Of a stretch of 64,000 nucleotides of DNA, positions 1,265 through 60,086 are shown in pieces; the first letter of the stretch is position 1, and every line of letters begins with the position of its first letter. The notes beneath the pieces are model-generated. The model did not search any database and was not told the origin of the DNA. It saw only the letters and a program-made list of their open reading frames with translations. A program made the translations under genes and the position numbers. The stretch comes from Escherichia phage vB_EcoM_G17. The stretch is taken from the sequence record MK327931.1; one strand, written 5' to 3'.

Positions 1265-1313
1265 GTATATTGGTACATTAACTATTATATCATATTTTTA
1301 TAAGTTGTCCCAC

Positions 1314-15753: not shown

Positions 15754-16380
15754 TTATGTATTAGAATAAATAATGTCCATTGCTTTTTTATGTAAATCAT
15801 CAATAGTACTGTTATTCTGTACAATTATATCAGGATTGTTTATTCCAATCCAAGCCCACTCAGATTCGTGTACTGATTCAAGTTCAACTGGTTTAATATT
15901 AATATCCCCTTTATTATAAGAGGCAGCCAAACCATACCAATGTGGTAGAACACGTTGAACTTCAATAATAGTCCCATTATTCGATCTAATCATTTTTAAT
16001 TCATTTGGAAAACGGCAATCAGTGATGATGATATTTCCATCTATGTCTTGCATTGATTTTTCTAAACTGAATACCCAAATATCATTATGAAAATACTTAC
16101 GCAAAATATTAGTACCATAATTCTGCAATACCCATCGAGGGGATACATCATTACGACCTAACTTATCACACCAGTACTGATCCGGTTCTTCACGAATCTT
16201 ACGACTTTCCTTAGTTGACCCCTCAAGCATTTCACGGTCCCATCCAAAGATGGCAGAAACTGAATCTTTTAGATTGGTTGCGAATGACATTCGTGTGTAA
16301 CCATTATTAATAAAAGATTCACCAAATGTATCTTTACCACTTCCAATAGTTCCGTTAATTGCAATTATTTGTCTTCCCAT
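15754..16380 (-). CDS. deoxynucleoside monophosphate kinase (T4 gene 1-like)
   Basis: P-loop IAINGTIGSGKDT and ITDCRFPNE matching T4 dNMP kinase motifs. Confidence 0.85.
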   Translation of the reverse strand: MGRQIIAINGTIGSGKDTFGESFINNGYTRMSFATNLKDSVSAIFGWDREMLEGSTKESRKIREEPDQYWCDKLGRNDVSPRWVLQNYGTNILRKYFHNDIWVFSLEKSMQDIDGNIIITDCRFPNELKMIRSNNGTIIEVQRVLPHWYGLAASYNKGDINIKPVELESVHESEWAWIGINNPDIIVQNNSTIDDLHKKAMDIIYSNT

Positions 16381-17805: not shown

Positions 17806-18175
17806 TTTTCTTACAATTACTCAGTAAGTGAATGATATCATCAGCAGTGAATGGTCCCAATACCAGAACTTCTTCACCATTACCGAAAATGCTCAATGGC
17901 ACTGATTGTTGACCAGCTAGATATTCAATTTGTTCCAGTTCGAAAATGTCATCAGCAGCATATACTACCTGCTCCATTTCATTATCTTTAATCCATGACT
18001 GCCAATGTTCTTTAAACTTCTTAGCTTCGTATTCTTGAACATAGTTAGGTGATTCAGGGTTGTATTGATGTAACATAGTCATCCCAGCCATTACTAATTC
18101 TTTAGGGGATGGTGTAGAATCTTTCAGTACTACGATAGCTTGGATAGTTTTTACTTTAACGTCATTAGCAGCCAT
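17798..18175 (-). CDS. hypothetical protein (125 aa)
   Basis: ORF, tight spacing. Confidence 0.5.
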   Translation of the reverse strand: MAANDVKVKTIQAIVVLKDSTPSPKELVMAGMTMLHQYNPESPNYVQEYEAKKFKEHWQSWIKDNEMEQVVYAADDIFELEQIEYLAGQQSVPLSIFGNGEEVLVLGPFTADDIIHLLSNCKKIE

Positions 18176-18187
18176 TATATACCTCTA

Positions 18188-18505
18188 TTATAGAATGATT
18201 TTATTCTCAGGAACGAAAACTTTTGGAGTGTTTTCGATTGCTTTAATAGCATCAACATAAGCATCAACTAATGCAGGGTTTGCATCACTAACACTAATAA
18301 TGTTGGATTTATAAAAAATAACATTTTTCTCCATACTAACAAACTCTAGATAATCACGAAGAATGATTTCACCATTTTCGTCAGTCCCTAGTTGTGCTGG
18401 GTAGTTAACTACAACAGCTTCAGCAGAATCGGTTTGAAGAACTGCTAGTACTGGGCCAATGTTATTGATGTTTAGTAGTTTAACGGTCATAGTCATTTTT
18501 GTCAA
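18188..18505 (-). CDS. hypothetical protein (105 aa)
   Basis: ORF, tight spacing. Confidence 0.5.
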   Translation of the reverse strand: MTKMTMTVKLLNINNIGPVLAVLQTDSAEAVVVNYPAQLGTDENGEIILRDYLEFVSMEKNVIFYKSNIISVSDANPALVDAYVDAIKAIENTPKVFVPENKIIL

Positions 18506-18515
18506 GTCCTTTTGT

Positions 18516-18992
18516 TTATTTTAGAATGTATAAGTGTTTTTCTGCATTGACCAGACGGTGATCAATGATTTCTTTGATAACGTTCCAGTTACCGCCGCCC
18601 AAATCGGCTCCAATTTTCGGGAAATGTACATGAACATCTCGATCAACTTTACAAAAATAATTTAGATGTTTGAACACATCGTCAATTGCATCATAACTGA
18701 CATATTTAGCACCGTCATTACCGTACATTTTTTGGGTAATACAGTTTGCAATAATCAAATTATCGTTAATTGCTGAATATGCAATTTGTCCAATTCTAAG
18801 AAATCCCATTTCCTTTTCATATGCTTTATAATCATCATATGCCATTGGGTAGCGATTCCTTAGTTCCTTTGCGAAACCAGAACCCATCTTACCTTGAGCA
18901 TTACATCCGTGAGCAATAATATGTAATGCATTTTGATCATCGGTAACAGTACTGAATAATTCAAACAGATTACCTCGGTGTTCATGAATCAT
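18516..18992 (-). CDS. macro domain protein (ADP-ribose binding or processing)
   Basis: ALHIIAHGCNAQGKMGSGFAKEL and GADLGGG resemble macro-domain phosphate-binding loops. Confidence 0.7.
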   Translation of the reverse strand: MIHEHRGNLFELFSTVTDDQNALHIIAHGCNAQGKMGSGFAKELRNRYPMAYDDYKAYEKEMGFLRIGQIAYSAINDNLIIANCITQKMYGNDGAKYVSYDAIDDVFKHLNYFCKVDRDVHVHFPKIGADLGGGNWNVIKEIIDHRLVNAEKHLYILK

Positions 18993-19041
18993 TATATTCT
19001 CCGAAAAGAAAGGACTCTGTGGTCAGAGTCCTTATTTTAAA

Positions 19042-19299
19042 TTATTCTTCTTCACCGAAACGGATTTTCTTTAATTCTTTTCGATGCTTTCTAGCTATTG
19101 TACTTTTGTGAAGTCTATTACTGCGTTTTGTGTCTTTTGTAATGTACCATGAATCTTCTGGTGCATCATAATCACAAAATCCATCTTCCGTAATTGTTCC
19201 TAAAAATGCAGATTTTTTAGGAATATTAGTTTGAGCTTTAGCCTGAAATTGACCTTTTGCTAATTGTTCACGAAAACTGAGCATAATAGTATCTCCCAA
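19042..19299 (-). CDS. hypothetical basic protein (85 aa)
   Basis: ORF, minus strand. Confidence 0.5.
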   Translation of the reverse strand: MGDTIMLSFREQLAKGQFQAKAQTNIPKKSAFLGTITEDGFCDYDAPEDSWYITKDTKRSNRLHKSTIARKHRKELKKIRFGEEE

Positions 19300-19330
19300 A
19301 TTGTTAAGAAGAACTTTTTGTTCTTCACAT

Positions 19331-19582
19331 TTATTTAGGGTTGCCAGAAACCTTCACATGTTTGATAAATGCCAAAATATCATCTTTACTAAAAGATTTT
19401 ACAATAAATTCTACAGCCGAATCATACTGTTCTTGTTTAGATAGATATTCTTTCATTTTGTTAATTTTAATCTGGGCTTTTTCTTTAGCTATTGAAATAT
19501 CAGGAATTTTAAACTCTACTCCCAACGTATCAGCTAGTTGTTTTGCACGAGATGATACTTTTTCAATATCCATTAGTTCCAA
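19331..19582 (-). CDS. hypothetical protein (83 aa)
   Basis: ORF, minus strand. Confidence 0.5.
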   Translation of the reverse strand: MELMDIEKVSSRAKQLADTLGVEFKIPDISIAKEKAQIKINKMKEYLSKQEQYDSAVEFIVKSFSKDDILAFIKHVKVSGNPK

Positions 19583-19821
19583 CGACCTTCTTTAAGACCT
19601 TCAATAAATCCAGTACAACCACCTGGTACATAAATGTCATTTACGAAAATTTGAGGAACTTGACGAACTGGTTCACCACAAATTTCAGACAGTTTTGAAC
19701 CATCGATACCTTCAGCAACAATATCTACAAACTCCATTTCAAATTTATTTTGTTCACATACAGCTTTTGCAGTGTCGCAAAATTTACAACCAGTCTTGCG
19801 ACCATAAATTTTAACTTTCAT
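19573..19821 (-). CDS. glutaredoxin/thioredoxin-like protein (NrdH/NrdC-like)
   Basis: Redox motif CKFC near N-terminus, ~80 aa, resembles T4 NrdC layout. Confidence 0.7.
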   Translation of the reverse strand: MKVKIYGRKTGCKFCDTAKAVCEQNKFEMEFVDIVAEGIDGSKLSEICGEPVRQVPQIFVNDIYVPGGCTGFIEGLKEGRWN

Positions 19822-19822
19822 G

Positions 19823-20224
19823 TTATTTCCTTCTATTTCTTTGAAAAGCTTTAACAGCTTTAATAATACTGTTACACATTCGTTCAGTCAAATACTTTTG
19901 ACATTCTCGTACATCAATGTACATGAACTTATCCAATTCTGGATGACTCTTACCATATCTATTAGTGTAAGTACTTTTACAAACTAATTCATCTGGTATT
20001 GGTTTGTCTTTGGCAGTATAAAAGAAAAGTACTAACCTTTTTCCCTTTCTATAGGATACATCACCAAGAAACAGAAGATCATCTTCATCGATTTCGTATC
20101 CTGTCTCTTCGAAACATTCACGTACAGCAGCTTCTTTGAAAGTTTCATTACCCTCAGCTTTCCCTTTAGGTAAATCCCAATGATTCTGTCCGTGTTGTAT
20201 GTCCGATAAGTATCTGACCATCAC
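19823..20224 (-). CDS. Nudix hydrolase
   Basis: Nudix box GKAEGNETFKEAAVRECFEETG; GTG/ATG start; short N-terminus. Confidence 0.75.
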   Translation of the reverse strand: MMVRYLSDIQHGQNHWDLPKGKAEGNETFKEAAVRECFEETGYEIDEDDLLFLGDVSYRKGKRLVLFFYTAKDKPIPDELVCKSTYTNRYGKSHPELDKFMYIDVRECQKYLTERMCNSIIKAVKAFQRNRRK

Positions 20225-20296
20225 GATAAAATATTATACCACAACTATAACGCATATCTTATCTCTTTGTCATCAATCGATGTTCAGATACTAATA

Positions 20297-20324
20297 ATTA
20301 TATCAGTTATTGGTTTTTTGTCCC
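20297..20324 (-). promoter_or_regulatory. sigma70-type promoter GGGACA-16-TATAAT
   Basis: Minus strand GGGACAAAAAACCAATAACTGATATAAT between CCA gene and Nudix gene. Confidence 0.45.
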
Positions 20325-20331
20325 ACTATTT

Positions 20332-21444
20332 TTAGAACATTTGTTTGATTGCTTCGTAACGAAGTTCACAAACAAAATCACGAATTTCTGACGTTTCAAG
20401 TTCACCATCTTTGACCATTTGCTGAATATCAGGCAATTCAACATCAGTATAACGATCATAAACTTTAATAATTAGATCTTCAAGTTCTAAATCAATTTCT
20501 TTTCGCAAAATGAAGTATTCCAAAACTTTATAAAGGAATTCTTCACCTCCGTTATTTTTAATATTCATATCCAATAAAATATTACCCATTTCAATAGGGG
20601 TCTTTTTACGGAATGTTTTGATATCATCACGGAAACGTTTGATATAATTACTAAATTTAACATACTTAACTGGAACTTTAATAGCACCGTTAAGTACTGA
20701 ATCATTATTTACTTCTTCATTTTCAAGAAGAATAGACCACAGAAAATATGGTTTATATACATCAGTACAGTTATCTGAAATATAATCAATAAGGTCTAAA
20801 TTCTTTTTGGTCAAAGATGTATTAAACACCTTTTCGTAATAACCAAATTTACTTAGCGTCTTAAGGAACTTTGAAGGCTTTTCTTCAGAAAATGATTTTT
20901 CGAATTCCACAAAAACACGGTCAGGAACAAGATGATTTAGCTCACCACTATTGACCATTCCAATAGCGAGTTCCTCAGTGCTTTCATGGATAGTAAAGTC
21001 TGAATAACGAGTAGCAAATCGAGCAAGACGTAACACGCGTAATGGATCTTCTTTAAAATGGTCAGAAACATGACGTAGTATCTTGTTCTTGATATCAGCT
21101 TTACCACCGTATGGATCGATGTGAATTTGTAGTACTGGATCATACGCAATTGCATTAATTGTAAGGTCACGGCGATACAAATCTTGTTCTAGTGTTACGC
21201 CTTTTGTATCCACTTCAAAGCCACCATATCCAGTACCAGTTTTACGCTCAGTACGGGCTAATGCGTGTTCATTACCTTCTGGACTTAGATATACTGGGAA
21301 ATCCTTACCTACTTGCTTATAGCCAATACTTTGCAAGTACTTAAGATCAGATTCGGATGCACCAACAATGACATAATCTTTGTCTTTTGCACGGATGCCC
21401 ATTAAACGGTCACGGACGTAACCGCCAACCAAATACTTTTTCAT
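20332..21444 (-). CDS. cca: tRNA nucleotidyltransferase (CCA-adding enzyme/poly(A) polymerase family)
   Basis: N-terminal GGYVRD, DKDYVI and RRDLTINAIAY motifs. Confidence 0.85.
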   Translation of the reverse strand: MKKYLVGGYVRDRLMGIRAKDKDYVIVGASESDLKYLQSIGYKQVGKDFPVYLSPEGNEHALARTERKTGTGYGGFEVDTKGVTLEQDLYRRDLTINAIAYDPVLQIHIDPYGGKADIKNKILRHVSDHFKEDPLRVLRLARFATRYSDFTIHESTEELAIGMVNSGELNHLVPDRVFVEFEKSFSEEKPSKFLKTLSKFGYYEKVFNTSLTKKNLDLIDYISDNCTDVYKPYFLWSILLENEEVNNDSVLNGAIKVPVKYVKFSNYIKRFRDDIKTFRKKTPIEMGNILLDMNIKNNGGEEFLYKVLEYFILRKEIDLELEDLIIKVYDRYTDVELPDIQQMVKDGELETSEIRDFVCELRYEAIKQMF

Positions 21445-21579
21445 GTTATTCCCCCATCAACCAATCACGTAGACGTTCCCAGAAGCCTTTTGGTTGGTAT
21501 TCTGGGTATTCATATTCATCTGTGCCTTGCTCGGAAACACCCCAATCTTCTTCTAACATAGCAATCATAATGCCTCCAA

Positions 21580-22002
21580 TTAAATTAATCTATCACGTAG
21601 ACGGTCGTAATATTTTTTGTGTATAGCTAGTATACACTGATATGCAGAATAGTCAATACCAAATGTATCATCAATGAACATGTACTGATCAAGTGTTTCC
21701 GGTCCATTATCATCAACTGGTAATGTCCCTTCTTTTTTTGATAGTGTGTGCCACATCAACTCACTTTCAATATGGTGAGTTGCGTATGTCAATTCTATCT
21801 TACTTTTTCGTAGTAAAATTAACAATTCATCATTGTCGTCGAGTGCATTACGAAATTTAATACGAACTGTACCCTGGAAATTATTAGTGTACATAACACG
21901 ATGATGATTGTATGAAATCAAACCACGTCTTTCAGTACTGATTTCGTGTTCAGCAAAGTACTTTAACGTTTCATTAAATTTTGGAATTTTAGTAACGTCC
22001 AA
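21580..22002 (-). CDS. hypothetical protein, tandem paralog A (140 aa)
   Basis: Shares YMFIDDTFGIDYSAYQ-type motif with 21989..22405. Confidence 0.5.
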   Translation of the reverse strand: MDVTKIPKFNETLKYFAEHEISTERRGLISYNHHRVMYTNNFQGTVRIKFRNALDDNDELLILLRKSKIELTYATHHIESELMWHTLSKKEGTLPVDDNGPETLDQYMFIDDTFGIDYSAYQCILAIHKKYYDRLRDRLI

Positions 22003-22405
22003 TCACATAATCCTCATAAAGTTCGTATACCCTCATTATACTCTGATATGTATCAAAGTCAATACCAAAGGTATCCTCAATGAACTGATATTGCAAAAAC
22101 TCTTCCTCTGTAGCAGCAATAGGAAGAGTCCCGTTTCGTTGTTCTGTGGATTGAACATCCTCAATATACATCAACACTATACCTTCATCCAGATTTATAT
22201 CTATCATAAAAACATCTTCACTATAAAATATGTTATATGTACGGATGAAGAGATTTCCTGTTCTATCATAACTTGACACGTGTGTTTCATAATACATTTT
22301 ATCTAAACTAAAGAACAAACCTGTACTATCTGGCTTTTTAGTATTTTTTAATTTAATTTCGATAGCATCAATAATAGGTTTAATATCAAACTTTTTCATA
22401 GACAA
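21989..22405 (-). CDS. hypothetical protein, tandem paralog B (138 aa)
   Basis: Shares YQFIEDTFGIDFDTYQ motif with 21580..22002. Confidence 0.5.
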   Translation of the reverse strand: MSMKKFDIKPIIDAIEIKLKNTKKPDSTGLFFSLDKMYYETHVSSYDRTGNLFIRTYNIFYSEDVFMIDINLDEGIVLMYIEDVQSTEQRNGTLPIAATEEEFLQYQFIEDTFGIDFDTYQSIMRVYELYEDYVIGRY

Positions 22406-22594: not shown

Positions 22595-22990
22595 TTATAA
22601 AAAGCAATTATACAGTTTATTGTACAATATAAAAAGGTCTTTCACATTATCATAAGTAATATCAGATACATCATGAATTAATGATAACTGAAAAAATGAA
22701 GCTTCGTCTATTTCTGCTGGAATTATAACATCACCATCTTCTTCGTCCATTTTATTGGTGTAGTATTTTATGTGATCTACATTCAACTCAATAGAGAACG
22801 CAATGTTGGTTTTTGTATAATCTTCAATTAATCCAATATATTGAGATTTTTCATTAATAAAAAATCCAATCCCAACACAACGGTTATCTGGATATGGATA
22901 GTACCATCTATTAATAACTAGGTGTTCAGGTAAGTCCATATCATGTGTTGATATTAGAGATTTTACAATTTCCATCCAGGAATAATTCAT
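22595..22990 (-). CDS. hypothetical protein (131 aa)
   Basis: ORF, minus strand. Confidence 0.5.
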   Translation of the reverse strand: MNYSWMEIVKSLISTHDMDLPEHLVINRWYYPYPDNRCVGIGFFINEKSQYIGLIEDYTKTNIAFSIELNVDHIKYYTNKMDEEDGDVIIPAEIDEASFFQLSLIHDVSDITYDNVKDLFILYNKLYNCFL

Positions 22991-23043: not shown

Positions 23044-23376
23044 TTACTCTTCGTTTTCTGTCAAATCATCAAGAACTGGGTGTTCTGGATGGTTTCGGCG
23101 GTGTAATTTAATGCTTTTGTCTTTACTGAATACAGTTTCCATCTTATCAAAAGATTCAACAATTGCTTTATACAAATCAGCATCATCAGCAGTTACTGAT
23201 TTACTACCAGCAGTTAAAGTTACAGCATATTGAGTTTTATGCTCTTTCTTAACATGAACACCAATGTCTAGTACTGAAGAAGTACGGTACTTATCCAGAC
23301 TTTTTGCTTCATTGTAAATAGCATCTTGGATTGCTGGAGTGATATCAACGTTGCCTTGGATATTTAGATTTAGCAT
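23044..23376 (-). CDS. hpf: ribosome hibernation promoting factor homolog (HPF/RaiA/YfiA family)
   Basis: MLNLNIQGNVDITPAIQDAIYNEAKSLDKY aligns to E. coli HPF MQLNITGNNVEITEALREFVTAKFAKLEQY; later DLYKAI..DK as in HPF. Confidence 0.75.
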   Translation of the reverse strand: MLNLNIQGNVDITPAIQDAIYNEAKSLDKYRTSSVLDIGVHVKKEHKTQYAVTLTAGSKSVTADDADLYKAIVESFDKMETVFSKDKSIKLHRRNHPEHPVLDDLTENEE

Positions 23377-23393: not shown

Positions 23394-24320
23394 TTAGAGT
23401 GAACTTAACAACAAATCTGCTCGGTTTGTAACTTGACGATACCATAAGGAATTCATAATTTCTTTTTTAAATTTCTTAGGGTTATCATTTTTCACACTTT
23501 TCCAAAGTTTATTAAACGTTGCTAATTTATCAACACCCATTGTATAGGACATTTCATAAAGAATACGTTGTTGTTCTTTGGTCAGATTTACTGCTTCTTT
23601 TTTCTGCATCAATAATAAAAAGTCATTATATGTTCTTTTCATATCTTGCATTAAAAGTTTATTGGCTTGAGCTTTGGTAATACCGTTTCTGTACTTAATC
23701 GCATCAGATTCTTTTCTACCCAAATAATGCCCATAACCTATTGTATAATTACCTTTCATGTCCTTGTAGGGATGAAATTTAGAATTGTGGAAAGGAACTC
23801 CGACTTTCCCACCAAGTAAACGGCGTTTGTTCTTGGACTGAAATTCAATTGAACCTTCAGCTTCTTTGATGTGATTGACAATTTCTGGATCATTATAATC
23901 AAACAGTACAGTCACATCTGGTAACAATACGTTCTTCAAATCCTCTTTTGTTGGGATAAAGATACCCTGAGAAGTATGAAGAGTAGCATTTAAATTGATA
24001 TTTTTCAACAAAATAACATACTCTTCAAGTTGTACATTTTTAGGTTTAAACTTTTTAGCAATAGAATAATAACTATCACCAGGTTGAACCGTATAATGCT
24101 TCTCGCCGCGTGGAACATCCTTTGATATTTCTACCTTTGGTAATTCCTGCTTTTGAATTTGCGTAACTTGTGGTTTTAAATTGTGTACCTGACTTTCGTC
24201 CGATGATGATACACGATCATTTTGAGAAAAACCATAAAATCCAATCGCAGCGACAAGTACTGTGCAAACTAGAACACCATAAGTAGTCTTAGTTTTCAGT
24301 GCTTTTTTCGCTTGTTTCAA
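23394..24320 (-). CDS. LysM plus T4-lysozyme-like (GH24-like) domain protein with N-terminal membrane anchor; putative endolysin
   Basis: TM segment VLVCTVLVAAIGFYGF; LysM YTVQPGDSYYSIAKKF; GNYTIGYGHYLG..SLWYRQVTNRA resembles T4 lysozyme; likely TTG start at 24320 after AAGGAGG (ORF extends to 24353). Confidence 0.7.
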   Translation of the reverse strand: MKQAKKALKTKTTYGVLVCTVLVAAIGFYGFSQNDRVSSSDESQVHNLKPQVTQIQKQELPKVEISKDVPRGEKHYTVQPGDSYYSIAKKFKPKNVQLEEYVILLKNINLNATLHTSQGIFIPTKEDLKNVLLPDVTVLFDYNDPEIVNHIKEAEGSIEFQSKNKRRLLGGKVGVPFHNSKFHPYKDMKGNYTIGYGHYLGRKESDAIKYRNGITKAQANKLLMQDMKRTYNDFLLLMQKKEAVNLTKEQQRILYEMSYTMGVDKLATFNKLWKSVKNDNPKKFKKEIMNSLWYRQVTNRADLLLSSL

Positions 24321-24436
24321 AACGCCTCCTTTGTTGATTGTTAAGATGGGCAATCACAAAGATGGCAAAGAGGCCATTTGTAAAAGCCTCATCGGACTTT
24401 CTACAGTACAAAAACGTTCTTTTCAAATGTTTAAGT

Positions 24437-31396: not shown

Positions 31397-31424
31397 ATTA
31401 TATCATTGGAACATATAATGTCCC
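31397..31424 (-). promoter_or_regulatory. sigma70-type promoter GGGACA-16-TATAAT
   Basis: Minus strand TGGGACATTATATGTTCCAATGATATAATG; near-copy of element at 56614..56642. Confidence 0.5.
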
Positions 31425-36865: not shown

Positions 36866-37402
36866 TCATACTCCTGCTCTAATCAATGCACCGTACCATG
36901 TAACTCCTTTATCGTATGTTTCTAATGAAATAATATCTTTTTCACCAATTTCATAAGAAAGAACAACTGGTCTATTATATGACCATTTAACATTAGATCC
37001 CCAATTAACGAGGTTAGACCCTGTTTGCTGAGTTAATAGGATAGTAATTGAATAAACTTCAGTAGGAGCAGCACCAATAGCAATAGTGGTATTTCTGTCA
37101 GATAAATTAATATTAAAAACTGTATTACCTGATAGGGGATTAATTAAAATATTATTAGAACTCAATACATTATATAATTTGTTACTAGCACTATCATACA
37201 ATGTTACCCATTCTGTTTCATGATTCTCATTAGTAGCTTTAGCTTTTATTTTTACATTATTTTCGGAAGAAGTCATTCCAGTCCAGCCAGAAATAATAAA
37301 AGAACTGTTTTTATTTGTTCCAAATGATGCAATTACTGAATCACTAAGAGAACTATCTTCACCGTCAATAGATCCGAGTACTGACAATGTTAAAACCATC
37401 AT
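36866..37402 (-). CDS. hypothetical protein (178 aa), possibly the C-terminal part of a frameshift-split gene
   Basis: Overlaps 37365..37565 in another frame across an A5 run. Confidence 0.4.
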   Translation of the reverse strand: MMVLTLSVLGSIDGEDSSLSDSVIASFGTNKNSSFIISGWTGMTSSENNVKIKAKATNENHETEWVTLYDSASNKLYNVLSSNNILINPLSGNTVFNINLSDRNTTIAIGAAPTEVYSITILLTQQTGSNLVNWGSNVKWSYNRPVVLSYEIGEKDIISLETYDKGVTWYGALIRAGV

Positions 37403-56613: not shown

Positions 56614-56646
56614 ATTATATCATGTATGGGACATAATGTCCCATAC
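56614..56646 (-). promoter_or_regulatory. sigma70-type promoter GGGACA-17-TATAAT overlapping a 22-bp perfect palindrome
   Basis: Minus strand GTATGGGACATTATGTCCCATACATGATATAATG; palindrome GTATGGGACAT/ATGTCCCATAC. Confidence 0.5.
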
Positions 56647-56650
56647 AATA

Positions 56651-58090
56651 TTACATATTTTCTTCAGCAAATTCTGCAAGTGGTGAACGAACAACACCTT
56701 CTAGTTCGATGACACGACAACCTGCCCAATCTTTAAACTTCTCAGTTACATATGTCAAACCACTGTTAACAGGACTAATAAACTTACTGTCAATCTGACT
56801 CAAGTTACCCATAATTACTACTTTACAGTTTAATCCTGCTCGTGTCAAGATTGTTTTGGCTTGTGCAGGTGTAATGTTTTGGAATTCATCAACTACTAGA
56901 ATAGTGTTGGTGAATGAACGTCCACGTACAAAGTTTAGTGCTTTAAATTGAATAACATTACGTTTCATAATCTCTTCAATACTACCTTGAGGGTTAGCAT
57001 CATCTTTATGAAGAAACTCTAACGCGTCAATTGCGGCTCCACAGAATGGAATCACTTTTTCTGCTTCTGAACCTGGCAAGAAACCAATATCTTCAAACTG
57101 TGAGTCTTGAGTTTTAGAGAAGATGATTCGGTCGTATTTACGTTTTTCCAGTACTAATTCTAATGCAGTCGCAATCGTAATTAGTGTTTTACCAGTACCA
57201 GCAGAACCTAGCAGTACTGTTAGATGTACATCAGGATCGAGAATACTGTTGATGGCGAGTGCTTGTTGGATATTCTTTGCTTTAATATCCCATACTTTAG
57301 CACGTAAAGCTACTGATTGTCCAATATCTTGGAATACCAAAATATCTTCTGGTGTTAGTGTTCCATCATCTTCCTCAATTGCTGATTGACCTTCGTACAC
57401 AAATAATACGTCTGCATCATCATATAGATAATCCCCGATGCATAGATTTTGTGGGAGCAAATGCTCAATCAAGCTTTTGGAAATGTAATGATACAAACGA
57501 CGACCAACTTGTTCGGATTGAATATTAGTATTGGTTAAGTTGCTATATACTTCCCAAAAATTGATTTCCAAATGGTGTTGACCAATGTGAATCAAATCAC
57601 TATCACCAATAACAATATCATGGCGATAATCTTGTACCTCGACACCATAACTTAGTGCTTTGATACGCATGTTGATATCACGAGTTACCAGTACTGATTC
57701 TGTTGCTAAAGCTACCAGAATGATTTTATCATCAGGTACTGTGCTTTTGAGAAGGGTTTGAACTTTCTCTTCTGAACCTTTAGTACGAATTAGTGCTTCA
57801 GCTTCTTCGTTTGTAATAACAAACAATTTGCTATCAGGATTCATATTGGTATGAACATCAGCAATATTAACACCAGTACTACTAATCTCATCATGTGATG
57901 CATCTGCAATAATTGCTTCAATGTTACGAATAGCAACACGAGCATCGCGTGAAACATCTACATTACGACTCTTAATTGAATCCAATTCTTCCAGTACTGT
58001 AAATGGTAGAATGATTGCAGCACCATCAAAAGCAATAGATGCATTAGGGTCAGATAGTAGTACGTTTGTGTCAATTGTATATTTTTTCAT
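56651..58090 (-). CDS. phoH: PIN-domain/PhoH-like ATPase fusion protein
   Basis: N-terminal PIN (IDTNVLL); Walker A LLGSAGTGKT; Walker B VVDEFQN. Confidence 0.85.
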   Translation of the reverse strand: MKKYTIDTNVLLSDPNASIAFDGAAIILPFTVLEELDSIKSRNVDVSRDARVAIRNIEAIIADASHDEISSTGVNIADVHTNMNPDSKLFVITNEEAEALIRTKGSEEKVQTLLKSTVPDDKIILVALATESVLVTRDINMRIKALSYGVEVQDYRHDIVIGDSDLIHIGQHHLEINFWEVYSNLTNTNIQSEQVGRRLYHYISKSLIEHLLPQNLCIGDYLYDDADVLFVYEGQSAIEEDDGTLTPEDILVFQDIGQSVALRAKVWDIKAKNIQQALAINSILDPDVHLTVLLGSAGTGKTLITIATALELVLEKRKYDRIIFSKTQDSQFEDIGFLPGSEAEKVIPFCGAAIDALEFLHKDDANPQGSIEEIMKRNVIQFKALNFVRGRSFTNTILVVDEFQNITPAQAKTILTRAGLNCKVVIMGNLSQIDSKFISPVNSGLTYVTEKFKDWAGCRVIELEGVVRSPLAEFAEENM

Positions 58091-58150
58091 AAAACATCCT
58101 TGAGTTATGAGTACATCCTTGTACTCGACTAATGTTATTGACTCGGATTA

Positions 58151-58453
58151 TTACATATTTGGTTCGTATTCAACATAGCAACGTGAACCTCGAACCTTTT
58201 CTTCCCAGCACTCCTGGTAAACAAGTTGACCAATTGAAACTGGTTCTCTTGATAGTCCATTACGTACTTCACCATTTTGGGTTTTATACATAAATGAACA
58301 TTTGGACTCGCTACATTGTCCTAAACTAACAACTTCTGCGGTATTGTAGTGAATGTTGGTACGCTTAGTGTTCTCGTGATACTGTCCGAACCAAAGAACT
58401 CCTGCACCTAACAGAACAGTACAAATAAGACTTTTGATGTGTGTTTGAATCAT
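58151..58453 (-). CDS. small secreted or membrane-anchored Cys-containing protein (100 aa)
   Basis: N-terminal hydrophobic segment LICTVLLGAGVLWF; paired cysteines. Confidence 0.5.
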   Translation of the reverse strand: MIQTHIKSLICTVLLGAGVLWFGQYHENTKRTNIHYNTAEVVSLGQCSESKCSFMYKTQNGEVRNGLSREPVSIGQLVYQECWEEKVRGSRCYVEYEPNM

Positions 58454-58770
58454 AATGAGTTAAATCCATTGTTTAAGTATGTTTCAATATTAATTTTACC
58501 AACAGGATTACTACTGTGAACAAAGTACTCAAACGGTTCTTTAATATTATTATCAAACATATAATCAATAAGAAACTTAGCAAAAGAATATCCAGTCTTT
58601 TCGTCTTCGCTCACATCACCCAAGTCATGGTCGAATGATACAAATGCTGGAATTCCATTTTCAATAACATATTCACATGCACTTTTAAAGTCACGACATA
58701 CCACCATATCTTGGTTTGGATAATATAGATTTGCATCACGAATATCATCCAAAAACATTGAGTAAGACAT
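58450..58770 (-). CDS. receiver-like small protein, possibly CPR (cyclic-phosphate processing receiver) domain
   Basis: MFLDDIRD, SFDHDLGD and HSSNPVG recalled as CPR-like; recalled from memory only. Confidence 0.4.
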   Translation of the reverse strand: MSYSMFLDDIRDANLYYPNQDMVVCRDFKSACEYVIENGIPAFVSFDHDLGDVSEDEKTGYSFAKFLIDYMFDNNIKEPFEYFVHSSNPVGKINIETYLNNGFNSL

Positions 58771-58779
58771 GTTAAACTC

Positions 58780-59331
58780 CTATAGATAACTAATTAGTAA
58801 GTTTTCTTTTTGAACCAGATACTCCAATTCTTGTTTTGCTGTACCGATGAAGTTCTGTGTCATAAGATTATTATATCCCGCTTCTCGATTTTGTCCCTTA
58901 GAATAACGAGAAATATGACATAAATTTACACCAGCAACTTCTGCACTTGCATGTTTAGCATTAGTGTATCCATCTCTAATGTGTTTCAACTCGTCATAGG
59001 TTACTTCATAGCTAAAACTGTGACTGTTTGCACCTGGGTAAATTTCAAAAGTTTTGAGTGGTCGAAGATGGGAAACAAAAATATTGTAATCCATTTCTTC
59101 TTGAACTTCACGACGCAACGCATCTTCTAGTGAGATATCAGTACTTTCTACGGTTCCACCACATCCACCAAGAAGACCATCCCATCGTAATTGCAGTAAT
59201 ACTAAATTTACTTCTGGTATATCATTCAACTCATAGTTTTTGTAAGGGTTGCATTTTCTTGCAAAGAAATAACAAAATACAAAATTTGCACGTGTGCCAT
59301 ATTCACCAAAGGGAACTTCTTTAACACTCAT
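58780..59331 (-). CDS. Nudix-like hydrolase
   Basis: Nudix-box-like GGCGGTVESTDISLEDALRREVQEEMD. Confidence 0.5.
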   Translation of the reverse strand: MSVKEVPFGEYGTRANFVFCYFFARKCNPYKNYELNDIPEVNLVLLQLRWDGLLGGCGGTVESTDISLEDALRREVQEEMDYNIFVSHLRPLKTFEIYPGANSHSFSYEVTYDELKHIRDGYTNAKHASAEVAGVNLCHISRYSKGQNREAGYNNLMTQNFIGTAKQELEYLVQKENLLISYL

Positions 59332-60086
59332 TTCATACGTTCCTTAATTATAGTCTCTAGATGCGGTATTGCTTTGGTTGCTGGCTTGATAACTTTTTCA
59401 TTAAACAAAAAATCATTATCATTTTTACGAATGTTAACATTAACACTATAACATGGTAATGCTGCTGCTAATCTCGACCATACCAGTACTGTATCGCTAC
59501 TACCAATTACAATAACTGTATCATTTTCATTAAGAGATTTCAACACATTATTTCGTTCTTCGTAAATTGGTAAGCGAATACCATCAACATAACGATGATA
59601 TTCTCCAATCATTACTACATTTGGTTTAGCAAAAACATCATGTTTTGGTATGTATGGTTCGTATCCGCAGTTAATAACATTATAATCATCGGAATTGATA
59701 CTATAATTTTCAATAACTTCGCACAAGTTTCCATGAAGTTTAAGCTCATGACCACCAATACGAGTATAAAGATCGTCCATGTTAGAAGTCATATGAAGGA
59801 AGCAATCACCATATTGATCTTCTAACGATTTTATAAAATAATGCATTGCATTCGGTTCGCATTGTCCCAATTTTACACGTAATGTATTATAGAAAGAATG
59901 AACAACATGATATTTTGTAGTTAAACTAGCAATGTTACATACATCATTAATTTTAAATGTATCCCACAAACCATCATCAAATCGAAAAGGTTCCATACCA
60001 CTTTCAACAGAAAGTCCTGCACCTGATATAATCAGTAATCGCTTTTTACCTTCATTGCTTATAAATTTTTCTGATATCATATTCAA
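59328..60086 (-). CDS. Sir2 (sirtuin) family protein, no obvious zinc ribbon
   Basis: Rossmann motif GAGLSVESGMEPFRFDDGLW, TSNMDDL, catalytic-His region KLHGNL, VIGSSDTV. Confidence 0.7.
   Translation of the reverse strand: MNMISEKFISNEGKKRLLIISGAGLSVESGMEPFRFDDGLWDTFKINDVCNIASLTTKYHVVHSFYNTLRVKLGQCEPNAMHYFIKSLEDQYGDCFLHMTSNMDDLYTRIGGHELKLHGNLCEVIENYSINSDDYNVINCGYEPYIPKHDVFAKPNVVMIGEYHRYVDGIRLPIYEERNNVLKSLNENDTVIVIGSSDTVLVWSRLAAALPCYSVNVNIRKNDNDFLFNEKVIKPATKAIPHLETIIKERMK

What the first reader, a model, noticed from the sequence alone, without database searches (positions are those of the whole stretch)
18516..21444. Contiguous block of macro domain, glutaredoxin, Nudix and CCA-adding enzyme genes
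Four enzymes acting on nucleotides, ADP-ribose and tRNA 3' ends are clustered under GGGACA/TATAAT-type promoters. A phage CCA-adding enzyme can restore tRNA 3' ends removed by host tRNA-targeting nucleases, and macro plus Nudix can reverse or dispose of ADP-ribosylation products. This looks like a tRNA/ADP-ribose repair toolkit, though each part is individually known.
Basis: partly seen in the sequence, partly recalled or inferred. Interest (0 to 1): 0.5.

Follow-up and report, generated by a model that had tools for sequence, protein, structure and literature searches.

The report
Known phage accessory genes; frameshifted Nudix
The four enzyme genes are real, but they are already-annotated accessory genes of a known jumbo coliphage rather than one repair kit; the only new point is that the Nudix gene is split by a conserved one-base frameshift that still looks functional.

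Summary
The window is Escherichia phage Sharanji (Asteriusvirus, 121Q/PBECO4 type; 100% identity). All four genes sit on the minus strand and are already annotated in more than 30 GenBank records. Profile searches uphold all four domain calls.

The block is not contiguous and is not one unit. Two conserved unknown ORFs separate glutaredoxin from macro. Only one GGGACA/TATAAT promoter lies inside, upstream of Nudix. A strong terminator isolates macro.

Each gene has a simpler known reading:
- CCA enzyme: has no HD domain, and four of the phage's seven tRNA genes lack an encoded CCA.
- Nudix: T4 NudE family.
- Glutaredoxin: GrxA/NrdC-like.
- Macro: homologue of T4 Tk.4/AdfM, an anti-DarTG2 factor.

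The gene order holds only within RaK2-like jumbo phages. It is absent around CCA genes of four unrelated phages.

Two things go beyond the annotation:
- The Nudix gene carries a fixed one-base insertion (ACA ACA C GGA). Both halves are under purifying selection, and the shift falls at CGG, the phage's rarest codon. This makes it a candidate programmed +1 frameshift.
- Nudix and glutaredoxin are fused in-frame in a sister lineage.

The parts
20332..21444 (-). Class II CCA-adding tRNA nucleotidyltransferase, 370 aa. Head and neck domains are conserved; the C-terminal half is divergent and has no HD domain.
   Evidence: Pfam PolyA_pol 7e-19 and PolyA_pol_RNAbd 6e-8. NCBIfam NF008137 matches residues 1-207 only, 274 bits against a cutoff of 451. 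PHROG 2244 7e-116. Solved CCA- and A-adding enzymes 5e-21 to 1e-14. Motifs GGYVRD, DKD, RRD and EDPLR are read directly from the translation. No histidine occurs after about residue 170. The ATG lies one base after the stop of the upstream ORF.
20297..20324 (-). Promoter-like site GGGACA-N16-TATAAT (TGATATAAT), the only one of this class inside the block, upstream of the Nudix gene.
   Evidence: 5 matches in the window, all on the minus strand, against 0.08 expected. The element is conserved in position across Asteriusvirus and recognisable in Munch. The class is absent from the 1-50 kb early region, where TTGACA-type sites abound.
20193..20255 (-). Nudix (NudE-like) gene, segment 1: ATG plus 20 codons in frame 0 (MRYSCGIIFYRDGQILIGHTT). 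If read on in frame 0, it stops at 20166-20168.
   Evidence: Translations. This segment aligns to the N-terminal 21 residues of intact homologues and to residues 5-23 of a solved Nudix enzyme. Among core Asteriusvirus, 7 of 8 substitutions are synonymous in this frame. pN/pS is 0-0.14. A purine-rich Shine-Dalgarno-like stretch upstream of this ATG is conserved.
20186..20198 (-). Invariant shift site ACA ACA C GGA CAG, with one extra base relative to intact homologues (formally the C at 20192). The frame-0 codon is CGG and the +1 codon is GGA.
   Evidence: Alignment of 11 phages. Viral-contig and metagenome relatives. CGG is the rarest sense codon, 4 of 17,503. tblastn needs two pieces in Asteriusvirus only.
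19823..20191 (-). Nudix gene, segment 2 (+1 frame): 122 codons plus stop, carrying the Nudix box GKAEGNETFKEAAVRECFEETGY.
   Evidence: Pfam NUDIX 1e-12. PHROG 1185 2e-53 for the reconstructed protein. T4 nudE 37% identity, 6e-12. pN/pS 0.07-0.12.
19573..19821 (-). Dithiol glutaredoxin (82 aa, active site CKFC). Its ATG lies one base after the Nudix stop.
   Evidence: Pfam Glutaredoxin 2e-8. NCBIfam GrxA 1e-18, 67 bits, below the cutoff of 84. It is fused in-frame to the Nudix in six protein clusters of a sister lineage.
19331..19573 (-). orf80a, 80 aa, unknown function. Its start overlaps the glutaredoxin stop (TAATG).
   Evidence: No Pfam or NCBIfam hit. PHROG 34640, unknown function. Present at this position in all RaK2-like relatives examined. 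Unrelated to the YqeY-like gene at the same place in Eneladusvirus.
19042..19284 (-). orf80b, 80 aa, unknown function. Very highly conserved small basic protein; last gene before the terminator.
   Evidence: 48 protein clusters, all at least 54% identical, from long (about 350 kb) contigs. PHROG 15319, unknown. The AlphaFold model has low pTM (0.35) and only a confident long basic C-terminal helix.
19010..19033 (-). Intrinsic-terminator-like hairpin (10 bp, 5 GC pairs, followed by a T-rich tail) separating the Nudix operon from macro.
   Evidence: Terminator scan; sequence.
18516..18992 (-). Stand-alone macro domain protein (158 aa) of the Tk.4/AdfM family.
   Evidence: PDB 2fg1/2afc 1e-15, SCO6735 2e-11, Poa1p 3e-6, DarG 0.0045. 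NCBIfam DarG 4e-8, far below cutoff. PHROG 335 1e-45. RB32 Tk.4 30% identity, E 1e-12, with shared HGCN..MGSG and P[KR]IGA.G.GNW motifs. Family present in 2,130 phage records.

Best explanation
The region is a conserved syntenic stretch of RaK2-like jumbo phages. It holds several independent T4-type accessory genes rather than one repair system.

(1) The cca gene ends an upstream operon and encodes a class II CCA-adding enzyme without the HD phosphohydrolase domain. Its most likely job is completing and maintaining the 3' ends of the phage's own tRNAs. Four of these seven tRNAs (Thr-UGU, Asn-GUU, Ser-ACU, Gly-UCC) have no CCA in the gene. General 3'-end repair comes as a by-product.

(2) A GGGACA/TATAAT promoter drives a four-gene operon, nudE-like Nudix, glutaredoxin, orf80a and orf80b, closed by a terminator. 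Nudix and glutaredoxin probably act together, since they are always adjacent, one base apart, and fused in a sister lineage. In core Asteriusvirus the Nudix reading frame is broken by a fixed one-base insertion. I infer that full-length enzyme is made by +1 ribosomal frameshifting at ACA-CGG-A. Under this model the ribosome stalls on CGG, which is the phage's rarest codon and is read by a scarce host tRNA. The +1 codon GGA is then read by tRNA-Gly(UCC), which the phage itself encodes.

(3) Downstream of the terminator, the macro gene is a homologue of T4 Tk.4/AdfM. It most likely removes ADP-ribose placed on phage DNA by DarT2-type defence toxins.

Shown here: gene content, synteny, the frameshift, the selection pattern, tRNA 3' ends and homologies.

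Inferred: all enzymatic activities, the operon structure and the frameshifting itself.
For: - Identity and annotation.
- Domain calls.
- Transcription signals.
- Synteny in Asteriusvirus, Alcyoneusvirus, Eneladusvirus, phage Munch and uncultured relatives. No such linkage around CCA genes of phages F99, Asswx_1, XacN1 and PVP-SE1.
- Phage tRNAs and their 3' ends.
- No HD domain; no histidine in the C-terminal 200 residues.
- Frameshift present in five Asteriusvirus sublineages down to 82% nucleotide identity, and in an independent metagenome contig; absent in all other relatives.
- Purifying selection on both halves.
- CGG rarity.
- CGG as a proven +1-prone A-site codon in E. coli (yehP, GGT CGG C, confirmed by mass spectrometry): PMC2790909.
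- Nudix-glutaredoxin fusion in six diverged clusters.
- Macro homology to Tk.4 and its function in T4.
- No block protein among the 62 virion proteins of the 98%-identical phage phAPEC6: PMC7247149. The gene numbering there is inferred from gene order.
Against: - No activity has been measured for any of these proteins in this phage group.
- The host already has a CCA enzyme, so the phage copy is not strictly required for CCA-less tRNAs; T4 manages without one.
- Frameshift mechanism: the P-site tRNA-Thr cannot re-pair in the +1 frame (ACA to CAC). No Shine-Dalgarno-like stimulator lies upstream. The predicted local RNA structure (z -2.7) has no covariation support.
- The selection test on the N-terminal segment rests on only 8 substitutions.
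- Similarity of macro to T4 Tk.4 is only 30%, and substrate specificity in macro domains is not predictable from that.
- Promoter and terminator are consensus matches, not mapped transcript ends.
Confidence: 0.6

Rival explanations
1. One reading: the four enzymes form one counter-defence toolkit. The CCA enzyme rebuilds tRNA 3' ends clipped by host nucleases. Macro strips ADP-ribose from modified targets. Nudix destroys the released ADP-ribose or ADP-ribose-derived signals.
For: - The gene order is conserved across several genera.
- Macro family member T4 AdfM counters an ADP-ribosylating defence.
- T4 NudE hydrolyses ADP-ribose in vitro (PMC9503650).
- Defence by cutting tRNA CCA tails now exists (Cas12a3), and its authors say viral counter-measures are unknown (PMC12851939).
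- Ribosome- and tRNA-related genes sit nearby: HPF at 23044-23376, and a YqeY-like gene in Eneladusvirus.
Against: - The genes lie in separate transcription units, with a terminator before macro.
- There is no co-occurrence outside this one lineage.
- In T4 the homologous nudE and tk.4 genes are unlinked.
- Cas12a3 also removes the discriminator base (ACCA), which a CCA-adding enzyme cannot restore.
- The enzyme lacks an HD domain for healing cyclic-phosphate ends.
- Glutaredoxin and two unknown ORFs are unexplained.
- With about 17% of genes annotated (PMC7247149), my own rough estimate is that runs of 4 annotated genes in 6 would occur several times per genome by chance.
Confidence: 0.12
2. 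The Nudix-glutaredoxin operon is nucleotide-pool housekeeping rather than ADP-ribose handling. Glutaredoxin would reduce the phage ribonucleotide reductase, as T4 NrdC does. The Nudix would clean or balance nucleotide pools, alongside the nearby dNMP kinase.
For: - The glutaredoxin is GrxA-like, and phage Munch annotates its orthologue as NrdC.
- A dNMP kinase lies at 15754-16380.
- The phage encodes ribonucleotide reductases (PMC7247149).
- The best solved Nudix relatives are Ap4A hydrolase and RppH/MutT-type enzymes.
- The Nudix-glutaredoxin fusion argues for a shared process.
Against: - The only characterised family member (T4 NudE.1) prefers FAD, Ap3A and ADP-ribose, not dNTPs.
- The reductase seen in the window is the anaerobic NrdD/NrdG type, which by general knowledge does not use glutaredoxin.
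- No direct evidence links Nudix and reductase.
Confidence: 0.2
3. The Nudix frameshift is not recoded. The gene is an inherited pseudogene, or it makes only an N-terminally truncated protein from the internal GTG/ATG (20224/20221), for example from a leaderless transcript started at the TGGTATAAT extended -10-like element inside the gene.
For: - All public annotations call the 132-aa ORF.
- A perfect TGnTATAAT lies about 8 nt upstream of GTGATG.
- There is no slippery P-site re-pairing and no supported stimulatory structure.
Against: - Both halves show pN/pS of about 0.1 or less across lineages that all carry the insertion, so it is not a decaying pseudogene.
- Substitutions upstream of the shift are synonymous in frame 0 but mostly amino-acid-changing in the annotated frame.
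- The missing 21 residues align to N-terminal residues 5-23 of a solved Nudix enzyme. By general knowledge of the fold these are core strands.
- There is no Shine-Dalgarno sequence before the internal start, whereas the ATG at 20255 keeps one.
- The internal -10-like element is broken by synonymous changes in phage A4.
Confidence: 0.3

Closest known systems
T4 Tk.4 / AdfM (anti-DarT factor, macrodomain)
   Same: Stand-alone phage macro domain of about 155 aa. 30% identity over 123 residues (E 1e-12) with shared HGCN..MGSG and PxIGAxxGxGNW motifs. Same PHROG family. Detectable similarity to the DarG macro domain.
   Different: Only distantly related in sequence. Different genomic context: next to neck and tail genes here, next to tk/vs/regB in T-even phages. 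Anti-DarTG2 activity is untested in this phage group.
T4 NudE.1 (gene e.1) Nudix hydrolase
   Same: About 37% identity over about 116 residues (E 6e-12). Same small single-domain architecture. Located a few genes from a phage lysozyme, as in T4. The lysozyme linkage is also noted in PMC9503650.
   Different: Here the gene needs a +1 frame change after codon 21. It is always followed by a glutaredoxin gene and is fused to it in a sister lineage. Substrates are untested.
E. coli Cca (multifunctional CCA addition/repair protein, NF008137)
   Same: Residues 1-207 (head and neck, motifs A-E) match strongly, at 274 bits.
   Different: The C-terminal half does not match. It has no HD domain and no histidines, and the score is below the equivalog cutoff. 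The 'multifunctional CCA protein' and 'phosphatase' labels in several GenBank records are therefore not supported.
E. coli GrxA / T4 NrdC glutaredoxin-type reductants
   Same: 82-aa thioredoxin-fold protein with a CxxC site (CKFC). GrxA profile 1e-18.
   Different: Below the equivalog cutoff. Its partner enzyme is unknown. The tight coupling to, or fusion with, a Nudix is not a feature of GrxA or NrdC.
+1 frameshifting at a CGG A-site codon in E. coli (yehP, GGT CGG C; compare prfB)
   Same: A rare frame-0 CGG followed by a Gly codon (GGN) in the +1 frame. The host has a single scarce cognate tRNA for CGG. The site is conserved among strains (PMC2790909).
   Different: The P-site codon is ACA, with no +1 re-pairing. 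There is no upstream Shine-Dalgarno-like element. Frameshifting here would be needed to make the only functional product. The phage supplies the tRNAs for the P-site codon and the +1 A-site codon. No product has been observed.
Sirtuin-Nudix-cREC-PIN neighbourhoods of jumbo phages (Iyer et al. 2022, PMC9503650 section 3.7.3)
   Same: A published prediction of an NAD/ADP-ribose-linked RNA-repair module in this very phage group, with Serratia phage BF as the example.
   Different: That module is a different locus of this window (56651-60086) with a different, Nudt16-like Nudix. The flagged block is not part of it.

Membership tests
Class II CCA-adding tRNA nucleotidyltransferase | Pol-beta-type head domain with GGxVRD and DxD catalytic motif (motif A) | tested here: met
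   LVGGYVRDRLMG and KDKDYV in the translation; Pfam PolyA_pol 7e-19.
Class II CCA-adding tRNA nucleotidyltransferase | Motif B (RRD) and motif D (EDxxR) that select ribonucleotides and C/A | tested here: met
   YRRDLTINA and FKEDPLRVLRLARF read from the translation. Assigning these motifs to function rests on established knowledge of the family.
Class II CCA-adding tRNA nucleotidyltransferase | Closer to CCA-adding enzymes than to poly(A) polymerase or A-adding enzymes | tested here: met
   NCBIfam CCA models 274, 235, 205 and 197 bits, against PcnB 91 and A-adding 60 bits.
Class II CCA-adding tRNA nucleotidyltransferase | CCA addition to tRNA in vitro | not testable with these tools
   Needs a biochemical assay.
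Multifunctional CCA addition/repair protein (E. coli type, NF008137) | C-terminal HD phosphohydrolase domain and full-length score above the curated cutoff | tested here: not met
   Match covers profile positions 1-207 of 409 only, at 274 bits against a cutoff of 451. No HD Pfam hit. No histidine after about residue 170.
Nudix hydrolase, T4 NudE clade | Nudix box Gx5Ex7REUxEExGU | tested here: met
   GKAEGNETFKEAAVRECFEETGY, with Cys and Tyr at the two hydrophobic positions. Pfam NUDIX 1e-12.
Nudix hydrolase, T4 NudE clade | Sequence homology to T4 nudE (e.1) | tested here: met
   tblastn to T4 MT984581.1 67063-67443: 36.9% identity, 6e-12. 1,283 phage records in the family.
Nudix hydrolase, T4 NudE clade | One uninterrupted reading frame | tested here: not met
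   One extra base after codon 21. Frame 0 stops 8 codons later.
Glutaredoxin (GrxA / NrdC-like) | Thioredoxin fold with a CxxC active site; profile match | tested here: met
   CKFC at residues 12-15. Pfam Glutaredoxin 34.6 bits against a cutoff of 22.9.
Glutaredoxin (GrxA / NrdC-like) | GrxA equivalog score | tested here: not met
   67.3 bits against a cutoff of 84.
Macro domain, Tk.4/AdfM family | Macro fold, shown by sequence match to solved macro domains | tested here: met
   2fg1/2afc 1e-15, 5e3b 2e-11, 6lfu 3e-6. Pfam Macro itself is below the gathering score, 16.4 against 22.
Macro domain, Tk.4/AdfM family | Homology to T-even Tk.4 | tested here: met
   RB32 Tk.4 E 1e-12, 30% identity. 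Shared motifs. PHROG 335 1e-45.
Macro domain, Tk.4/AdfM family | Protection against DarTG2; removal of ADP-ribose from thymidine in ssDNA | not testable with these tools
   Shown genetically only for T4.
DarG antitoxin (NF048014) | Macro domain plus a C-terminal DarT-binding domain; equivalog score | tested here: not met
   32.9 bits against a cutoff of 250. The 158-aa protein covers only profile positions 18-139 of 338.
Programmed +1 ribosomal frameshift | Both reading-frame segments under purifying selection in lineages that share the shift | tested here: met
   pN/pS 0-0.14 upstream and 0.07-0.12 downstream. 7 of 8 upstream substitutions fall at third codon positions of frame 0.
Programmed +1 ribosomal frameshift | Conserved shift site with a slow (rare or stop) frame-0 A-site codon | tested here: met
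   ACAACACGGACAG is invariant in five sublineages and one metagenome contig. CGG occurs 4 times in 17,503 codons. The phage has no tRNA for CGG.
Programmed +1 ribosomal frameshift | P-site tRNA can re-pair in the +1 frame | tested here: not met
   ACA to CAC gives no standard pairing with anticodon UGU (read from sequence).
Programmed +1 ribosomal frameshift | Stimulatory element (upstream Shine-Dalgarno-like sequence or downstream structure) | tested here: inconclusive
   No Shine-Dalgarno-like run upstream. The local fold has z -2.66 but a covariation term of +0.52, with only 2 pairs showing a compensatory change.
Programmed +1 ribosomal frameshift | Trans-frame protein product observed | not testable with these tools
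   Needs mass spectrometry, a reporter assay or ribosome profiling.
Single functional operon or 'toolkit' | Co-transcription of all members | tested here: not met
   There is an internal promoter before Nudix and a strong terminator before macro. These are consensus predictions only.
Single functional operon or 'toolkit' | Recurrent co-occurrence in unrelated genomes | tested here: not met
   Linkage is seen only in RaK2-like phages. It is absent near CCA genes of four unrelated phages, and nudE and tk.4 are unlinked in T-even phages.

The most novel reading that the evidence does not exclude
In core Asteriusvirus phages the NudE-type Nudix hydrolase would be made only through a programmed +1 ribosomal frameshift at ACA-CGG-A. 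The stall codon CGG is the phage's rarest codon and is read by a scarce host tRNA. The P-site codon (ACA) and the +1 A-site codon (GGA) are read by tRNAs the phage itself encodes. Nudix output would then be set by the balance between host and phage tRNAs, acting as a built-in timer or sensor of translation state. If so, this would be a new natural +1 recoding site in an E. coli phage, and an example of phage tRNAs tuning recoding.
Probability: 0.4. Interest if true: 0.6.

Novelty: already known. Interest (0 to 1): 0.3.

Why it matters
As flagged, the block adds little. The genes are annotated in dozens of records. The macro and Nudix counter-defence idea is published. The macro family's anti-DarTG2 role has been shown in T4.

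Three side results are useful:
1. Several GenBank labels ('multifunctional CCA protein', 'phosphatase') overstate what the CCA enzyme can do.
2. The CCA enzyme has a testable housekeeping role, because most of the phage's tRNA genes lack CCA. This should be controlled for before it is claimed as a counter to tail-cutting defences such as Cas12a3.
3. The conserved frameshift in the Nudix gene, and the Nudix-glutaredoxin fusion in a sister lineage, are concrete and cheap-to-test leads. One concerns +1 recoding in E. coli. The other concerns the still unknown in vivo role of the widespread T4 NudE family.

Tried and rejected
- **Quadruplet-decoding or otherwise odd phage tRNA as the cause of the frame change.** ARAGORN places the anticodon at the usual position (33-35) in all seven tRNAs, and none reads CGG.
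- **A wider recoding habit.** I scanned the window for other CGG sites with the same two-frame geometry. The two hits (37376, ACT CGG A; 33450) look like ordinary gene junctions. For 37376, no homologue in the phage collection spans the junction. 33450 was judged from the ORFs alone.
- **A conserved RNA structure at the shift site.** The single sequence folds somewhat better than shuffles, but there is no covariation support.
- **Transcriptional slippage.** There is no homopolymer run at the site.
- **Virion packaging of macro and Nudix, as proposed in general by Iyer et al.** None of the genes between the neck protein and the second lysozyme is among the phAPEC6 virion proteins. The gene numbering is inferred.
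- **orf80a as a remnant of the YqeY-like gene found at that position in Eneladusvirus.** No similarity.
- **orf80b structure.** The model is too poor (pTM 0.35) to justify a fold search.
- **Linkage of CCA with Nudix, glutaredoxin or macro in unrelated phages.** None found.
- **Internal extended -10 (TGGTATAAT) as a promoter for a truncated Nudix.** Synonymous changes in phage A4 disrupt it.

Full report
**Identity of the window.** Window 18000-22000 is 100% identical to Escherichia phage Sharanji (OR545507.1, 350 kb, Asteriusvirus). It is 96-99% identical to 121Q, PBECO4, phAPEC6 and about 15 further records, and 80-90% identical to 14 more. All genes in the region are on the minus strand. 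In GenBank the four flagged genes already carry the names CCA tRNA nucleotidyltransferase, nudix hydrolase, glutaredoxin and macro domain protein. The Sharanji paper lists the CCA protein among translation factors without further analysis (PMC11895373).

**Check of the observation.**
- The CCA enzyme (20332-21444) hits PolyA_pol and its RNA-binding domain, the phage tRNA nucleotidyltransferase PHROG at 7e-116, and solved CCA- and A-adding enzymes.
- The Nudix ORF hits NUDIX at 1e-12, and the 82-aa ORF hits Glutaredoxin at 2e-8.
- Macro reaches only E 0.009 with Pfam Macro, below threshold. It matches solved macro domains 2fg1/2afc at 1e-15, SCO6735 at 2e-11, yeast Poa1p at 3e-6 and DarG weakly. 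It also matches NCBIfam DarG at 4e-8 and PHROG 335 at 1e-45.
- So the domain calls stand.
- The block is not contiguous. Two conserved ORFs of unknown function (19331-19573 and 19042-19284) lie between glutaredoxin and macro.

**Transcription signals.**
- GGGACA-N14-19-TATAAT occurs five times in the window, always on the minus strand, against 0.08 expected.
- It is absent from the 1-50 kb early region, where TTGACA-type sites are common.
- A comparable divergent promoter (odd -35 with a classic -10) was predicted for the related phages CBB and GAP32 (PMC5259590).
- Only one such site lies in the block, at 20297-20324 in front of Nudix.
- The CCA start codon lies one base after the stop of the upstream ORF, so cca belongs to an upstream unit.
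- Nudix, glutaredoxin and orf80a are separated by one base or overlap (TAAcATG, TAATG). orf80b follows after 46 bases.
- Then comes a 10-bp hairpin with a T-rich tail at 19010-19033. Macro lies beyond it.
- These are consensus predictions, not mapped transcript ends.

**Synteny.** The order lysozyme, HPF, ..., CCA, Nudix, glutaredoxin, orf80a, orf80b, macro, two ORFs, neck protein, dNMP kinase, tail sheath is kept in many relatives.
- It holds in Asteriusvirus, RaK2 (Alcyoneusvirus), Yersinia fHe-Yen9-04 and Serratia BF (Eneladusvirus), Salmonella phage Munch and uncultured relatives.
- Eneladusvirus has an extra YqeY-like gene after glutaredoxin.
- CCA homologues occur in 487 phage records.
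- In four unrelated carriers (Vibrio F99, Aeromonas Asswx_1, Xanthomonas XacN1, Salmonella PVP-SE1), no Nudix, glutaredoxin or macro homologue lies within 3.5 kb.
- In T-even phages the homologous nudE and tk.4 genes are unlinked.
- The linkage is therefore one inherited arrangement, not a recurrent association.
- Macro and Nudix domains are present in 56% and 45% of jumbo phages (PMC9503650).

**CCA enzyme.**
- The N-terminal 207 residues match the E. coli-type CCA model at 274 bits, far above PcnB (91) or A-adding (60) models. The match stops at profile position 207 of 409 and stays below the cutoff of 451.
- The catalytic and nucleotide-selection motifs (GGYVRD, DKD, RRD, EDPLR) are present.
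- No HD domain is found, and the last 200 residues contain no histidine. The 'multifunctional' and 'phosphatase' labels in some records are therefore unsupported. The enzyme could not heal 2',3'-cyclic phosphate ends.
- The window has no tRNA gene. The genome has seven, at 93.7-98 kb.
- Four of them (Thr-UGU, Asn-GUU, Ser-ACU, Gly-UCC) are followed by CAAA or CATA instead of CCA. Three (CAU, Arg-UCU, Ser-UGA) encode CCA.
- Phage tRNA maturation is thus a direct, sufficient reason for the gene.
- A counter-defence role is not excluded. Cas12a3 shows that tRNA-tail cutting is used in immunity, and its authors state that viral counter-measures are unknown. However, that nuclease also removes the discriminator base (PMC12851939), which CCA addition cannot restore.

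**Macro.**
- The family is present in 2,130 phage records, including T-even tk.4.
- Against RB32 Tk.4 the window protein gives 30% identity over 123 residues (E 1e-12), with shared HGCN..MGSG and P[KR]IGA.G.GNW motifs.
- T4 tk.4 was recently named adfM. It was the single conditionally essential gene on a DarTG2 host, a clean knockout was sensitised, and its model resembles the M. tuberculosis DarG macro domain (bioRxiv 10.1101/2025.11.20.689424).
- By homology, the best reading is an orphan-antitoxin-like enzyme that removes ADP-ribose from phage DNA.
- It is not a DarG equivalog. It scores 32.9 bits against a cutoff of 250 and lacks the C-terminal domain.

**Nudix gene: the frameshift.**
- The reconstructed protein belongs to the T4 NudE family (37% identity to T4, 6e-12; 1,283 records). 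The T4 enzyme hydrolyses ADP-ribose, FAD and Ap3A (PMC9503650).
- The annotated ORF starts at an internal GTG with no ribosome-binding site.
- Upstream, ATG 20255 has a conserved purine-rich leader. It opens MRYSCGIIFYRDGQILIGHTT and then runs into a stop after eight more codons. The Nudix box lies in the +1 frame.
- Intact homologues read MRYTCGIIFYRDGQILIGHTTGQEHWDLPKGK continuously.
- The difference is one extra base in ACA ACA C GGA CAG (window 20186-20198; formally the C at 20192).

**Nudix gene: distribution of the frameshift.**
- The insertion is present and the 13-nt site is invariant in Sharanji/121Q/PBECO4, UE-S1, Ecwhy_1, JNE01 and A4, which are sublineages down to 82% nucleotide identity. 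It is also present in an independent metagenome contig.
- It is absent in EJP2, Munch, Eneladusvirus, RaK2 and nine uncultured relatives.
- tblastn needs two pieces only in Asteriusvirus.
- It is therefore an ancestral, fixed change and not a sequencing error.

**Nudix gene: evidence that it is still read across the break.**
- Among the frameshifted genomes, 7 of the 8 substitutions in the 63 nt upstream fall on third positions of frame 0 and are synonymous. The eighth is Ile to Val. In the annotated frame, most of the same changes alter amino acids.
- pN/pS is 0-0.14 upstream and 0.07-0.12 downstream.
- The upstream 21 residues align to residues 5-23 of a solved Nudix enzyme.
- The substitution pattern confines the frame change to the invariant stretch of about 16 nt.
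- The frame-0 codon there, CGG, is the rarest sense codon in 75 ORFs of the window (4 of 17,503).
- The phage has no tRNA for CGG, but it encodes tRNA-Thr(UGU) for the preceding ACA and tRNA-Gly(UCC) for the +1 codon GGA.
- In E. coli, CGG has one scarce cognate tRNA. It was identified as a +1-prone A-site codon, and a GGT CGG C shift in yehP was verified by mass spectrometry (PMC2790909).

**Nudix gene: evidence against programmed shifting.**
- The P-site tRNA cannot re-pair.
- No Shine-Dalgarno-like element lies upstream.
- The local fold (z -2.66) lacks covariation support.
- No odd tRNA exists.
- Two other CGG junctions in the window are ordinary gene boundaries.
- I rate recoding at about 0.4. 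It is untested.

**Nudix and glutaredoxin.**
- In phage EJP2 the two genes form one 225-codon ORF with both Pfam domains.
- The protein database holds six 90%-identity clusters of this fusion. They are 76-100% identical to one another, and their linkers differ but stay open.
- Together with the invariable adjacency, this argues that these two proteins work together.
- What they do jointly is unknown. Nucleotide-pool metabolism and ADP-ribose or FAD turnover are both possible.

**Unknown ORFs.** orf80b is among the most conserved small proteins of the group. It has 48 clusters, all at least 54% identical. Its model is poor (pTM 0.35), with only a confident long basic helix. Its function is unknown.

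**Packaging.** In the virion proteome of phAPEC6 (98% identical here), nothing was detected between the neck protein gp280c and gp306c. The second lysozyme Gp293 was explicitly absent (PMC7247149). By gene order this range covers the block, so these proteins are probably not injected.

**Verdict.**
- The unifying interpretation is not supported, apart from the macro domain's link to ADP-ribosylation reversal and a possible downstream role for the Nudix.
- The block is already known and ordinary.
- The frameshifted but selected Nudix gene and the Nudix-glutaredoxin fusion are the only points that go beyond existing annotation.

Noticed in passing
window 56651-60086 (minus strand): A second ADP-ribose-related cluster: Sir2 (59328-60086), a Nudt16-like Nudix (58780-59331), cREC (58450-58770), a 100-aa ORF, and a PIN+PhoH protein (56651-58090). 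[quoted passage not shown] This locus, not the flagged block, fits the published repair-module prediction.
   Followed up: partly
window 1284-1311, 20297-20324, 31397-31424, 56614-56642, 58870-58897 (all minus strand): GGGACA-N14-15-(T)GATATAAT promoter-like class. There are five copies against 0.08 expected. None occurs in genome positions 1-50 kb or 100-140 kb, and one occurs in 84-100 kb. One copy lies inside the Nudt16-like gene just upstream of cREC. This may be a phage-specific, possibly middle, promoter class.
   Followed up: partly
L015 (Sharanji record 95,373-95,561), outside the window: Unusual phage tRNAs. One is a 92-nt tRNA-Ser with anticodon ACU, in a phage that also encodes a tRNA adenosine deaminase (PMC11895373). 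Another is a 90-nt 'tRNA-Met' (CAU), much longer than the 73-77-nt phage tRNAs.
   Followed up: no
L012 4048-4725 (phage EJP2) and proteins P0049-P0054: In-frame Nudix-glutaredoxin fusion protein (225-227 aa) kept in six diverged clusters of a sister lineage.
   Followed up: yes
window 21580-22002, 21989-22405, 22595-22990 (minus strand): Tandem paralogous ORFs of about 135 aa directly upstream of cca. They share a C-terminal motif (GTLP...QY.FI.DTFGID..YQ). The first two match at E 9e-12; the third is weaker. They have no known domain.
   Followed up: partly
window 23044-23376 and 23394-24353 (minus strand): A ribosome hibernation factor homologue (HPF/RaiA, Pfam 3e-10) lies next to a LysM-lysozyme, a few genes upstream of cca. 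The arrangement is conserved in relatives.
   Followed up: partly
L006 4686-5093 and L007 4723-5130 (Eneladusvirus): A YqeY-like (GatB C-terminal-like) protein is inserted right after glutaredoxin in Eneladusvirus (Pfam YqeY 9e-7 for the BF copy). It is annotated there as 'tRNA amidotransferase'.
   Followed up: partly
L018 (IMGVR_UViG_2030936005_000022): The macro homologue is split into two ORFs (127 and 72 aa) in this uncultured relative. This is either a frameshift or an assembly error.
   Followed up: no
window 20228-20236 (approximate, minus strand): A perfect extended -10 element (TGGTATAAT) lies inside the first Nudix segment, about 8 nt before the annotated GTG/ATG start. It is encoded by the conserved Cys-Gly-Ile-Ile codons and is broken by synonymous changes in phage A4, so it is probably incidental.
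   Followed up: partly
window 37365-37402 (minus strand): A 66-aa ORF ends at ACT CGG ATC TAT TGA, overlapping the start of a 178-aa tail-fibre-like ORF in the +1 frame. The heptamer resembles the Nudix shift site, but no homologue spans the junction.
   Followed up: yes
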